64,000 nucleotides of DNA from Vermamoeba vermiformis. Taxonomy: Eukaryota. The position numbers and the translations under genes were made by a program. Shown piece after piece: positions 11,737 through 16,634 of this stretch. The stretch spans positions 186,001-250,000 of the forward strand of contig JBEWZL010000236.1 of the NCBI GenBank assembly GCA_045837725.1, in the 5' to 3' direction. Within the stretch, counting starts at the first letter, position 1. Every line of letters starts with the position of its first letter. The notes under the pieces were generated by a model that made no database searches, was not told the origin of the DNA, and saw nothing but the letters and a program-made list of their open reading frames with translations.

Positions 11737-14700
11737 ATGGGAGACACTGCCCACATAAGTCCCGAGCAAGCTAGTCAAGTGCTTAACTTGGCAAACGTCG
11801 ACGCTAATCTGATCGGCAAGTCCTTGATAGTTAAACAATTCAAATGGTCATGACTAACCGCACAAATTATAGACATACTTGCTCGAAAAGATGTAGTTAC
11901 TTTTGGCTCGCTTGTACGAGTAGGCTTGGAGTTAATTCGGGATCCAACGTAAGTTCAGAATAACAATTTTATTTTATTACGGGCATAAGAAATTATTGAT
12001 TATTTAGTTTATTGAACTCTAATCTTTACAGATAACAATATTATGAATTTGAAAAATTTGTTAATTAATCGAGATCTCGCCAGACTAGCACAAGAGACTG
12101 CTCCCCACACTATTAAATTATCGAATAAGGCCGTCAATATTATTAAAGATTTTGCCACGAGATTTCCCAGTAAGTACCAATAATTGACACGCCCGTGCTG
12201 GCCTCTAGTCTAATATAATCGTATTACAGCCATTTTGCCGCTAATTAAAGCCGGTCAATCCTCTCCCAAAGGTCACTTCATCTTTTGTTCCGACAGCGCA
12301 GTTATATCAGCCATCACAAAGTGGCGATTTGAACAATTACCACCGAGCATTATTGTACGCACTAAATACAGCTCATACACGTCATTATTAATCAACTACT
12401 TTACTTTAATTAGCTTCGAATGCAAGCACCACCAACGCCCCCAGCTGCAAAATTTACCCAACATGCACCGAGCACGGAAAATCAAGTACAGGAAGTAACC
12501 AGCACTGAGCCCAACAGTGATGGAGTGCAGAGTCAAAAGAAGAAAAAAGCACGACGAGGCAAAAAGAAAAAAGCAATGCCGAATGCACCAGACACAAGTC
12601 AAGACAGCGAAGATACAATTACGAGTTCAGCGAACACGGCCGATGAGAGCAACAAGTCAGCGGGCAATACAAACGTGTGGTTTCACAAGAACATTGAAAA
12701 TGTCAAAAAAGCAACGCCAACCAAGGCACCGCCGAAGTTAGGCAGTTCAAAGCCAAAACAACCACCTCCCAAGGCCAACACCACCACTAACAACAACAAA
12801 GCAGCTACTTCACCTGCCACAGCCAGTCCTCAGCTGGAGTCAAAAAGTACCCCGAGTCCAGCAAAGACGAGCACCATTCGCTACTCCGACATTCTCAAAG
12901 CACCGCCACCAAAGGTACGACATCAGCGTGCAAAAACTAGTATCTAACCTTTCGTCACCAGAAATCAACTCCACCACCTCCTGCTGCTGCTCCAAAGGCC
13001 ATTGCAAAAGCTCCTAGGGCTCCTCCAAAAGAAGCCACAGCCGCTCCTCCGAAAGCGCAGCCTAAGAGAAAGAAACGCGAGCCGATATTGCTTGGCGATA
13101 TTGTCATCAAAGAGGTACGAATGAAACCGTAACACAAATGTGAGCCTAACTAGTACATTGCAGCAAGAGGCAAAGAAACTGCCTGCAGCCAAGAAGAATA
13201 TACAGCCGCCAAAGAACAAAGCCCCTCCGAGCGCAGTTCTCACGATGAACACAGCGACAGATGCGGTCATTGTCAAGCGAAGTAAGGTGCGCGAGACACC
13301 GAAGCCGAAGAAGTTTAGTCGTCTGAAGAAATTGATTCTGATTGAACGTGCTGAGAAGTGGAAGTCGCGTAATACCGCAGCACAAGCGACACAAAACATC
13401 GATAGTAATGAAGACGCTGTGAAAAGAGATGACACGAAGGAAGATAGCGAGCACGAAGATATTGATGAACTGTCGGACGAGGTACTCAGATAAGCCCGTA
13501 TCTCACTGATAGTTTAATTAACACTCGCTTGTATTCAGGACAAAGATGCAAATTCCAATGTGAACAACACGAATGTAAATAATGAAGCAGAAACAAAACC
13601 CAAAATTACCAAAGTGAAGAAAGTTCCGAACAAGTTTCTCATCAGAGAGTGAGTCGCCATCATACCTCTCGTATATCCATATTTTATTAACCACCGATTA
13701 GATATTGCGACCAAATTATCACCGATCAACTCAACAGCAAGATTATCGCGTTATTGACCAAATTGCGGGAACTACAAACTAAGATGAAACAAAGGGACGC
13801 TAAGAAAGTACGTTAGCAAGCTCGCTTCGTCGAACAGTCCTAACTTTGTACAGGCTGCAATGAAAAGACGATTTGTAGTCGGACTGCGAGAGGTGGCGCG
13901 AAGTGTCAAAGTGTCACAAGTCAAGCTGATCATCTTAGCCCCAGACATCGAAGAAAGTAGTGCCCCAGGTACGCATACTGAGCCTATTTATCTCCGAAAC
14001 TAATTCCTCCGCAGAAAGTCTTGATGACCGCGTTGCGGAGATTCTTGAAGGAGCACGTGAGATGAGTGTCTTGTGCGTGTTTGGACTAAATAGGAAGAAA
14101 CTTGGAGCAGCGTTGGGCTTCAAATTGCGTATGAGCGTCGTTGGTCTATCGTATATAGATGGTAAGGATTGCTTACGTCGCTTACAGCTGTTGACATGTG
14201 TTGCAGGTGCCAATGAGCTGTACAATGATCTCGTGGAGTGTGCCGTCAAGAGCCGCATTCTGTTTGCCTTGCAACGAAAAGTACTCGAGCGCCAGGCTGA
14301 ATTACGAGGAACTGAATTAATTGTACCGAAATTCGAAGCTACAGGTCATCGAGATGAAGGTAAGGACAACACGGGACTAGATCTGGATGCACAATTGTTA
14401 ACTAGCAATACAGACACTCAAAAATCGAAGAACAAAATCCTGTTTACGATGGCAAAGTACAAAAATGAAGAGAAGCTGCCTGACTATCAAAAGTTCACCA
14501 CCGACAAGCTGGTAGATCTGTTACACGACGGACGATCGAAGCAAAAGAACAGCTTGACTCTGTTCGTGCAAGACCTTGATAAGAACAAAATACACCTTTT
14601 TGAAGAATTATCGCCAGCTACCAAAGTCATTGAGCTGAAAGTAAGCCATAACCGCCGGATATCCGAATCCCAATCTCTTCTCAATTCGGAATATTTCATT

Positions 14701-14890
14701 TTAGGAACAACTTCTGCTGCGCACTGCTACTGCAAAAAAACTCCTTCCAGAAATGCAACTAAAATTCCACGACCTGGTGCTTGGTGCGGAGTTGGATGAA
14801 GTGCCCATCAGCGAATTGCCTAGTTTAGAAAATTATTCGACAATTACTGTTCAAAAAAATGCCCTATCTTTAATCAAGATTGTTTTGTAA
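11737..14890 (+). CDS. SECISBP2: SECIS-binding protein 2 (L7Ae domain) with a C-terminal ubiquitin-like extension, multi-exon
   Basis: K-rich KKFSRLKKLILIER, IREYCDQII, KRRFVVGLREV, IILAPDIE...LDD and VFGLNRKKLG...SVVG...GANELY match SBP2. The first intron has a GC donor. Confidence 0.85.
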
Positions 14891-15413
14891 ATAATAAATG
14901 TAAATACTCCGAGGTGACGCGACGATCGTCCAAACGGTCTGAAACTGCTTCAAACCCTCGCAACAATCAGGAGACACGCGATATTGTAGCTCCCATGCAC
15001 TGGGATATTTAACAGCACGCTCTCGTCAGTAAGGGCAGCATTGTAGCTCGAATTGCAATTGAATCTGCGTAATGGAGAGATTGCGCGCGTACACAACAAT
15101 AAAAAATAACAGATGAAATTCTTATCGAAAAGCCCCACGATTGGTCAATCGGTTTTGTTTTTGTTTTTATATGTATCTTTCTCGACTGCACATAAAAATG
15201 ATAAAAATTTGGAGCTCTCTGATTGGTCGGCTGGAAAAGATAAAATCCAAAATTGGCGTTTCATCTCTTTTTTCTACATTGTTTTTTTTTCGTAACGTGG
15301 TGAAGCAAGCCTACCCCAAGTTCTTCCACCTTGGTAGTTCAGAGCTCCTCGCCGCAACACAAGAAAAAACTTTTGCTATTTTAGCAAGCCTTTAGAAACT
15401 TCGGTTTCGTCGT

Positions 15414-15479
15414 ATGCACTTTAACTTCCACTCTACTTTCACTTTCCTTGCAAATCCGGGTGACCGAGGGTATTCCTGA
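15414..15479 (+). promoter_or_regulatory. 21-codon uORF (MHFNFHSTFTFLANPGDRGYS*) in the AdoMetDC leader, ending TCC-TGA
   Basis: ATG at 15414 is in frame with TGA at 15477-15479, 17 nt before the main start. AdoMetDC mRNAs are commonly uORF-regulated. Confidence 0.65.
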
Positions 15480-15496
15480 CATCTCTAACTACGTGA

Positions 15497-16634
15497 ATGT
15501 AAGTATTCTCAAATTTGGCGCGAATGCCAGCGAAGCATCTGAATCAAATCCCAAAACAGAAAAATTAATTGCCATTAATTAAATAGGTCGGCTATCCAAG
15601 ATTTCCTCCTTGATACTGGTGTTAACCTTCCCCCAGCACAAGAGTGCTTTGGTTTTGAAGGCGTCGAAAAGAAGCTCGAAATCGACTTCAAGAAGATTAA
15701 AAACAACAAGCTTGGCTTGCGCGTCATTCCTCGCGCTTGCTGGGAAGAAGTACTCGATATTGTCAAATGCAAAATCCTCAACATGACCAAGAACGCGTAC
15801 TTCGATGCTTATGTCTTATCCGAATCTAGCTTGTTTGTCTATCCATACAAAGTCATGCTCAAGACTTGCGGCACAACTGTTACCCTTCGCTGCCTTGACA
15901 GACTCATGGAAATTGTGAAGGAGCACGTTCCCGAGACCTCTATCGAATTCTGCTTCTTCAGTCGACGCAATCTTCTCTTCCCCGATCGACAGATCTTCCC
16001 TCACACTAGCTTCGAAGACGAAGTTGGCTACTTGAACAAAGCTTTTGGTACTGATGGAGAGGCCTACGTCTTTGGCCCCAACAACGCTCATCAATGGCAC
16101 TTGTACTTTGTCGACTACAGCGACAAGACCGAGATCACAGACGACGTGACTTTGGAGATTATGATGACTGACCTTGACCGCACTGTCATGGAACAGTTCT
16201 ACAAATCTGCCGAAGATATTTCTGCTAAAGAAATCACTCGTTCTGCCGGTATCTCGAATCTGATCCCTGGTCAAGTCACTGACGAGTACATGTTCGACCC
16301 CTGTGGCTATTCGATGAACGGTTTGTTTGGTGATGTCTACTCCACCATTCACATCACTCCTGAGGCTCACTGCTCATTCGTCTCGTTCGAAACCAACATC
16401 AAGGCTGCTGATTACACCAAGGTCCTCAACGATGTAATTGCTGCCTTCAAGCCTGGAAGATTCACCGTATCTCTCTTTGCCGACAGCGGCGCTCTCTGTG
16501 GTCCTTCAACCTTCAATGCTTTCAACCGCGAAGTTGGCGGTTTTACTTGCAAATCCAATGCCTACCACGAGTTCGAAGGACAATACAACGTTACGGTTAG
16601 CAACTATGTTGCCCGTGACTTTATTGGCGCTTAA
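15497..16634 (+). CDS. AMD1: S-adenosylmethionine decarboxylase proenzyme; start codon split AT|G by intron 15499-15586
   Basis: FEGVEKKLEIDF, the YVLSESSLFV autocleavage site, LKTCGTT, FDPCGYSMNG and TIHITPE. The only in-frame start is made by splicing. Confidence 0.95.

What the first reader, a model, noticed from the sequence alone, without database searches (positions are those of the whole stretch)
15414..15613. AdoMetDC leader uORF ends in the antizyme shift site UCC-UGA; a +1 shift would carry ribosomes past the main start
Seen: the uORF MHFNFHSTFTFLANPGDRGYS* ends GGG TAT TCC TGA C. In the spliced mRNA the +1 frame continues DISNYVNVGYPRFPP* (TGA at 15611-15613), overlapping the AdoMetDC AUG out of frame and ending in Pro-Pro-stop. 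The shift does not enter the enzyme frame. Known: antizyme uses polyamine-stimulated +1 shifting at UCC-UGA (ORF1 ends ...GPRWCS*), and AdoMetDC mRNAs are repressed by polyamines through uORFs. Inference: at low polyamine levels ribosomes terminate and reinitiate 17 nt downstream; at high levels they shift or stall and bypass the AUG. This would be an antizyme-type sensor used as an OFF switch.
Basis: partly seen in the sequence, partly recalled or inferred. Interest (0 to 1): 0.7.

Follow-up and report, generated by a model that had tools for sequence, protein, structure and literature searches.

The report
Conserved amoebal AdoMetDC stall-type uORF

Summary
RNA contigs cover the uAUG and confirm the intron that splits the enzyme's AUG. 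The gene is AdoMetDC of Vermamoeba vermiformis (Amoebozoa). In 60 of 79 analysable related loci the leader carries a uORF ending (mostly) D-T-G-[I/Y/F]-S-stop-YAU. It is conserved as peptide, starts at a weak AUG (pyrimidine at -3 in 55 of 55), and has relatives in Tubulinea, Evosea and Discosea. The frameshift reading fails: UCC-UGA is only 25 of 59 sites, AGY serine and UAG are common, and the +1 frame ends before the main AUG in 25, overlaps it in 28 and fuses to the enzyme in 5 of 58. The Pro-Pro-stop is probably a by-product of a second finding: codons 7-13 of the enzyme (FLLDTGV) copy the uORF consensus, the only such match in the 43-Mb genome. Best reading (inferred, about 0.72): a leaky, polyamine-responsive termination-stall uORF that works like vertebrate MAGDIS but is not a member by sequence. 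I found no paper on it. The scan noted proline-type AdoMetDC uORFs in other genomes, not this type. Interest 0.52.

The parts
15301..15496 (+). 5' leader of the AdoMetDC mRNA, as far as RNA contigs reach
   Evidence: contigs start at 15301-15305 in 3 of 4 runs; true cap site not shown
15411..15417 (+). uAUG in weak context (CGT-ATG-C: pyrimidine at -3 and +4)
   Evidence: family 54 of 55 with both pyrimidines against 18% of 1356 background AUGs
15414..15479 (+). 21-codon uORF, the only AUG-started one in the covered leader
15462..15482 (+). conserved uORF end D-R-G-Y-S-TGA-CAT (family consensus D-T-G-[IYF]-S-stop-YAT); proposed termination stall site
   Evidence: stalling is inferred
15494..15496 (+). 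in-frame TGA directly before the main AUG, giving U at -3
   Evidence: a stop at this place in 37 of 58 family loci
15499..15586 (+). 88-nt intron splitting the main start codon AT|G
   Evidence: skipped in 4 of 4 runs
15497..16634 (+). AdoMetDC coding sequence, 349 aa, PF01536, single match in the genome
15385..15613 (+). AUG-less +1-frame ORF overlapping the main AUG and ending RFPP-stop; probably a by-product of the next part
15603..15635 (+). enzyme codons 7-13 FLLDTGV, a copy of the uORF consensus without Ser-stop, followed by N-L-P-P (codons 14-17)

Best explanation
A conserved-peptide uORF that represses AdoMetDC by stalling at its own stop codon. Shown: the uORF is in the spliced mRNA; its last residues, a poor termination context and a weak start context are under selection across amoebae. 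Inferred: at low polyamines most scanning ribosomes leak past the weak uAUG and start the enzyme. At high polyamines a ribosome carrying D-x-G-[I/Y/F]-S-tRNA terminates slowly at the stop-pyrimidine site and blocks scanning. The queue behind it raises initiation at the weak uAUG about 20 codons upstream, which sharpens the shut-off. No change of frame is needed.
For: 60 of 79 analysable related loci carry the element (L025 dropped, no FEG motif found). Counts use 59 rows: the window plus 58, after dropping L002 (same species) and L004 (same as L003). Last five codons among the 52 strict rows: 3082 synonymous and 941 non-synonymous pair differences in the uORF frame, against 161 and 3976 in the +1 frame. 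Ser is TCC 43, AGC 12, AGT 2, TCT 1, with Cys once. Stops are TGA 38, TAG 19, TAA 2. The base after the stop is a pyrimidine in 58 of 59. An AUG is present in 55 of 59, with pyrimidine at -3 in 55 of 55, T at -1 in 55 of 55, pyrimidine at +4 in 54 of 55. Length is 19-22 codons in 42 of 55. It is the only upstream AUG in 53 of 58 leaders. In this genome 15 of 15 actin-family starts with a clear N-terminus have a purine at -3 (20 loci taken, 3 ambiguous, 2 no call). The element occurs in 14 enzyme clusters at 60% identity, with named neighbours Vermamoeba, Polysphondylium (L008), Paradermamoeba (L016 and L018 at 80%), Flamella and Nematostelium. Mammalian MAGDIS ends Ile-Ser-stop and stalls at termination in response to polyamines (PMC2811004, PMC7038982, PMC7089771). 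Queue-enhanced initiation at weak starts is described for Azin1 (as cited in PMC6917043).
Against: No functional data: polyamine response, stalling and queuing are all inferred. The window's uORF is a divergent member. It scores -5.8 bits on the family profile (family median 21), has Arg for Thr, and its Phe-Leu lies three residues further from the Asp (14.6 bits if that gap is allowed). The two differences between the window and strain-level L002 inside the uORF are both non-synonymous, though in the variable first half. 42 of the 59 rows form one cluster, so counts are not independent. Leaders of the three closest relatives (63-68% identity) could not be fetched. The Ser codon ends in C in 55 of 58, so nucleotides at the stop are also selected, which a pure peptide model does not explain.
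Confidence: 0.72

Rival explanations
1. One reading: polyamine-stimulated +1 frameshift at UCC-UGA-C carries ribosomes past the main AUG to a Pro-Pro-stop (antizyme sensor as OFF switch), here as a lineage-specific add-on.
For: TCC-TGA is the commonest site (25 of 59) and occurs in 7 of 14 deep clusters. The base after the stop is a pyrimidine, as in antizymes. UAG and UAA also support shifting in mammalian antizyme (PMC1874602). A polyamine-responsive nascent peptide can stimulate +1 shifting (PMC4505036). Pro-Pro before a stop in this frame is rare in the coding background (2 of 1617).
Against: The +1 outcome is unconserved: 25 end before the AUG, 28 overlap it, 5 fuse to the enzyme (n=58); lengths run from 2 to 370 codons; frames are random. 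Ser is AGY in 14 of 59, a codon absent from the antizyme site table, and UGA is 64% against about 97% in antizymes. No 3' structure: z +0.7 here, mean +0.5, 1 of 59 below -2. FLLD-coding gives Pro-Pro in this frame in 5 of 17 family uORFs, and about 7% chance of Pro-Pro-stop with this gene's codon use (my product of counts).
Confidence: 0.07
2. The working inhibitor is the Pro-Pro-stop ORF, started at a near-cognate codon (AZIN1 uCC type), with the AUG uORF as shield or relic.
For: The frame is open for 46 codons and has six near-cognate codons. 9 of the 19 loci without the Ser-stop uORF have an AUG uORF in this same frame that overlaps the main AUG and ends Pro-x-stop. Known AdoMetDC uORFs end LFPP, RRPP, KFPS (PMC2811004 supplement). 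L003 also has an AUG-less Pro-Ser-stop in this frame.
Against: No near-cognate codon has both a purine at -3 and G at +4. Only the window and L003 among 58 rows have Pro-x-stop in this frame; the background of 4.5% predicts about that many. By my reading the N-termini of P0002-P0004 cannot encode Pro-x-stop here. Selection for Pro-Pro-stop would not produce FLLDTGV, whereas the reverse is easy.
Confidence: 0.09
3. In this species the sensor has moved into the enzyme: nascent FLLDTGV-N-L-P-P pauses elongation at codons 13-17 when polyamines are high, and the diverged uORF is secondary.
For: FLLDTGV scores 19.1 bits, best of 88,307 six-frame windows in the 64 kb (next 12.1), 0 of 20,000 shuffles. 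No window of 92,071 in 272 other AdoMetDC sequences exceeds 9.9. It is the only match of its coding pattern in the genome (reversed control 5). It is invariant in 13 full-length cluster members.
Against: It lacks Ser-stop, the most conserved part. No other species examined has it; P0004 and dictyostelids show only D-x-G-[IF]. Those 13 members vary at only 16 of 349 sites, so invariance is weak. It may be a relic of duplication or fusion. The uORF keeps weak context, typical length and stop context.
Confidence: 0.08
4. The uORF is a constitutive or stringency-sensing brake (eIF1/eIF5 type, or another metabolite such as SAM), not a polyamine sensor.
For: Both uAUG and main AUG are in weak context (main AUG pyrimidine at -3 in 48 of 58), the layout of stringency-controlled mRNAs (PMC8892498).
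Against: Every tested AdoMetDC uORF in the review read responds to polyamines (PMC2811004); peptide-level selection at the stop points to a stall.
Confidence: 0.04

Closest known systems
Vertebrate AMD1 uORF MAGDIS (and Ciona uORF ending DVS)
   Same: Same gene, AUG uORF in the leader, ends hydrophobic residue-Ser-stop without penultimate proline; L003 ends DIS exactly and L009 EIS.
   Different: 16-31 codons, not 6; uAUG 25-408 nt from the contig end (113 here), not 14 nt from the cap; Gly, not Asp, before the hydrophobic residue (55 of 58); conserved hydrophobic residues at -8 to -6; stop 6-42 nt before the main AUG in most, not 165-345.
Antizyme ORF1/ORF2 +1 frameshift cassette
   Same: UCC-UGA followed by a pyrimidine; slow termination; polyamine pathway.
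   Different: No conserved ORF2; Ser codon and stop vary; no 3' structure; random frame.
Penultimate-proline AdoMetDC uORFs (plants, algae, Pezizomycotina, nematodes, Hydra)
   Same: Same gene and inferred logic; the window's AUG-less +1 ORF ends like them, and 9 related loci carry an AUG-started version.
   Different: The conserved uORF here has no penultimate proline; the review names only vertebrates and sea squirt as exceptions.
AZIN1/ODC upstream conserved coding region; eIF5 and Hox weak-context uORFs
   Same: Weak start upstream of a conserved pause or stop, suited to queue-enhanced initiation.
   Different: Start is AUG in poor context, not non-AUG; end is not proline-based.

Membership tests
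Antizyme-type +1 frameshift cassette | ORF1 ends in a shift-prone codon plus stop (UCC-UGA) | tested here: met
   15474-15479
Antizyme-type +1 frameshift cassette | [quoted passage not shown] | tested here: not met
   UGA 38 of 59, AGY Ser 14 of 59; standard from PMC1874602
Antizyme-type +1 frameshift cassette | +1 frame has a conserved outcome | tested here: not met
   25 / 28 / 5 of 58; frames 19/22/17
Antizyme-type +1 frameshift cassette | Poor termination base after the stop | tested here: met
   C here; pyrimidine in 58 of 59; shared with stall models
Antizyme-type +1 frameshift cassette | 3' stimulatory structure (not universal) | tested here: not met
   z +0.7; 1 of 59 below -2; pseudoknots not modelled
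Antizyme-type +1 frameshift cassette | 5' nucleotide module A | not tested
   its sequence was not in the passages read
Antizyme-type +1 frameshift cassette | Polyamine-stimulated shifting | not testable with these tools
   needs a reporter
MAGDIS-type uORF | AUG uORF in the AdoMetDC leader, selected as peptide | tested here: met
MAGDIS-type uORF | Ends Ile-Ser-stop | tested here: inconclusive
   family Ile 37, Tyr 9, Phe 9, Val 2, Leu 1 of 58; the window has Tyr; I5L abolishes the mammalian stall
MAGDIS-type uORF | Asp directly before Ile-Ser | tested here: not met
   Gly 55 of 58, Asp 1
MAGDIS-type uORF | Hexapeptide next to the cap | tested here: not met
   21 codons, 113 nt from the contig end
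MAGDIS-type uORF | Polyamine-dependent stall at the stop | not testable with these tools
   needs toeprint or ribosome profiling
Penultimate-proline AdoMetDC uORF | AUG uORF ending Pro-x-stop, conserved | tested here: not met
   AUG uORF ends Tyr-Ser; Pro-Pro ORF has no AUG and is not conserved
AZIN1-type non-AUG uCC | Conserved near-cognate start in good context and conserved proline end | tested here: not met
   six near-cognates, none with both -3 purine and +4 G; end unconserved

The most novel reading that the evidence does not exclude
The hydrophobic-Ser-stop stall uORF is shared by descent between Amoebozoa and vertebrate MAGDIS, so it predates animals; and in Vermamoeba the motif acts twice, at the uORF stop and again inside the enzyme's own nascent N-terminus (codons 7-17), making the enzyme chain itself a polyamine sensor.
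Probability: 0.15. Interest if true: 0.78.

Novelty: new variant of a known kind. Interest (0 to 1): 0.52.

Why it matters
MAGDIS has been a near-invariant vertebrate oddity whose stalling differs from tunnel-constriction stallers. About 58 natural variants of a longer Ser-stop peptide show which positions matter and give a second lineage without the penultimate proline. One carrier is a dictyostelid, so the mechanism can be tested genetically. The paired weak start codons and the 19-22 codon length are a natural test of ribosome queuing. The copy inside the enzyme hints at how arrest motifs move between uORF and main ORF.

Tried and rejected
uAUG removed by an intron at the GTATGC look-alike donor (15412): rejected, contigs run through it. 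Antizyme family search of the own genome found nothing, but its controls were silent too, so it says nothing. Viral contigs: 48 pattern matches, 0 confirmed. Exact consensus FLLDTG[IV]S-stop elsewhere in the genome: 0. mis-picked two stops (L009, L069); site, frame and context counts come, and only the background AUG rate, shuffle test and L002 comparison come. The idea that the motif is a duplicate of the enzyme's T-G-F-E-G start is not supported (median -9.9 bits, best 6.6, n=246). The careful tree did not finish; the quick tree serves only for nearest neighbours, and its deep forks are weak. No variant was listed in 15301-15838 against 12 further down in 4 runs, but contigs drop rare variants, so this is not counted. 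Leaders of P0002-P0004 could not be fetched.

Full report
Observation. The 21-codon uORF starts at 15414 and ends TCC TGA CAT at 15474-15482. An 88-nt intron (15499-15586) splits the enzyme's start codon and is skipped in 4 of 4 RNA contig sets, all of which extend upstream of the uAUG. The main ORF is a 349-aa AdoMetDC with one match in the genome. It is 98% identical to a protein whose accession names Vermamoeba vermiformis (Tubulinea). The +1 frame runs 15 codons past the stop, crosses the main AUG out of frame and ends RFPP-TGA at 15611-13. TCC-TGA by itself is ordinary: 24 of 6401 six-frame stops in the window.

Relatives. One metagenome scan confirmed 163 loci and returned the best 80, nearly all transcript-like contigs at 40-52% identity, plus L002 from the same species. 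L025 could not be anchored, leaving 79. Sixty carry a uORF end of one family; with the window, and without L002 and L004, 59 rows were counted (52 strict, 5 relaxed, 2 ending P-[DE]-I-S). The consensus is [FYW]-[LI]-x-D-T-G-[IYF]-S-stop. The strict motif is in 51 of 78 leaders and in none of 100 shuffled sets. Differences in the last five codons are mostly synonymous in the uORF frame (3082 against 941) and almost all non-synonymous in the +1 frame (161 against 3976). Serine uses both codon boxes and all three stops occur. The stop is followed by a pyrimidine in 58 of 59 and by CAT or TAT in 42. An AUG is found in 55 of 59 (two contigs are cut short, two lack one). It has a pyrimidine at -3 in all 55 and at both -3 and +4 in 54, against 18% of background AUGs; actin-family starts in this genome have a purine at -3. 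Pyrimidine at -3 without G at +4 is the published definition of poor context (PMC8892498). Named neighbours are Polysphondylium violaceum for L008 (Evosea), Paradermamoeba levis for L016 and L018 (Discosea), and Flamella (70%) and Nematostelium (62%) for the large cluster. The element therefore spans three amoebozoan phyla. Most rows are unnamed and 42 of 59 are one cluster.

Frameshift test. An OFF switch by bypass needs the +1 frame to clear the main AUG without entering the enzyme. It overlaps the AUG in 28 of 58 rows, stops before it in 25 and fuses to the enzyme in 5. The enzyme frame is random relative to the uORF (19/22/17, p=0.72). UCC-UGA is 25 of 59 and UGA 38 of 59, against about 97% UGA in antizymes; AGY is not among antizyme shift codons (PMC1874602). 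No 3' structure was found. In the reading's favour, TCC-TGA is the commonest site, other stops can support shifting, and nascent peptides can stimulate it. Some shifting as a by-product of slow termination is possible, but it is not what selection keeps.

The Pro-Pro-stop. It deserved a test: known AdoMetDC uORFs end in penultimate proline, 9 related loci have an AUG uORF of that kind in this same frame, and an earlier scan note reports one in Naegleria (e1-635146, not checked on that genome). But in the enzyme frame these bases read F-L-L-D, the start of FLLDTGV at codons 7-13. That 7-mer matches the uORF consensus better than the window's own uORF does (19.1 against -5.8 bits). It is the best of 88,307 windows in the 64 kb and the only match of its coding pattern in the genome. 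I noticed it by eye before scoring it, but the search space was a few dozen codons. FLLD gives Pro-Pro in the neighbouring frame in 5 of 17 family uORFs, so the Pro-Pro-stop is most simply its shadow. Whether the copy is a relic or a working pause is open; no other species examined has it.

Mechanism. Shown: a transcribed uORF with selected peptide end, weak start and weak stop context. Inferred from MAGDIS, plant and Azin1 precedent: leaky scanning at low polyamines; slow termination, blocked scanning and queue-enhanced uAUG use at high polyamines. Overlap of uORF and main AUG in 3 of 58 loci argues against reinitiation as the general route. The 19-22 codon length in 42 of 55 is about two ribosome footprints (footprint size recalled), which fits queuing but is suggestive only.

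Literature. PMC2811004: main text parts 1-3 of 4, supplement PDF part 1 of 2, keyword search of that PDF for amoebal names with 0 hits (the index file was not searched). It lists no amoebozoan uORF and names only vertebrates and sea squirt as lacking the proline. Passages only: PMC1874602, PMC7038982, PMC8892498, PMC7089771, PMC2075485, PMC6917043, PMC4505036. Ivanov et al. 2018 was seen only as cited; Dever and Ivanov 2018 is not held. Searches listed no paper on such an element; I saw those as listings, and only 15 of 47 hits for the motif string. Subscription papers and their supplements were not visible and could hold an earlier mention.

Verdict. A real regulatory uORF, founding a peptide family I could not find described; a new variant of polyamine-pathway stall uORFs. 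It works like MAGDIS by inference, fails membership by sequence and layout, and is not an antizyme cassette. Interest 0.52.

Noticed in passing
L007, L010, L012, L013, L026, L030, L034, L053, L079 (also L006, L015, L077, L078): A second uORF type: weak-context AUG, overlaps the main AUG by 20-44 nt, always in the same frame, ends Pro-[Pro/Ser/Asn/Arg]-stop. L006 and L015 show such an end without an AUG in the contig; L077 and L078 overlap but end Tyr-Arg. Taxa unknown; several group loosely with Pharyngomonas.
   Followed up: partly
window 15494-15496 and family: An in-frame stop directly precedes the main AUG in 37 of 58 loci (33 TGA). The enzyme frame is open between uORF stop and AUG in 8 of 55 against 33 expected, all due to this codon. 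Weak context or insulation against read-through; not resolved.
   Followed up: partly
L088, reverse strand, about 850-1110 (G000:C166): An ornithine decarboxylase-family gene has an upstream TTT-ATG-C and a predicted main start TTA-ATG-T, both weak contexts. Gene model unverified.
   Followed up: no
L086, reverse strand, about 1110-1400 (G000:C238): Predicted eIF1 start is TTG-ATG-A (U at -3), as expected for an autoregulated weak start; exon model inferred by eye.
   Followed up: no
P0247, P0274-P0287: Database proteins whose called N-terminus reads like the +1 frame of the uORF end joined to the enzyme; probably gene-calling artefacts, and a case where a +1 shift would switch the gene on.
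   Followed up: no
P0048, P0050, P0053, P0064, P0067, P0101, P0111, P0004: Dictyostelid enzymes keep an N-terminal F-N-E-x-[DE]-A-G-F segment and P0004 has a similar one; it may be related to the Vermamoeba motif, but scores below zero on the profile.
   Followed up: partly
window about 12400-14800: The multi-exon gene upstream has a segment that looks like an L7Ae/SECIS-binding protein 2 domain (label recalled, not tested).
   Followed up: no
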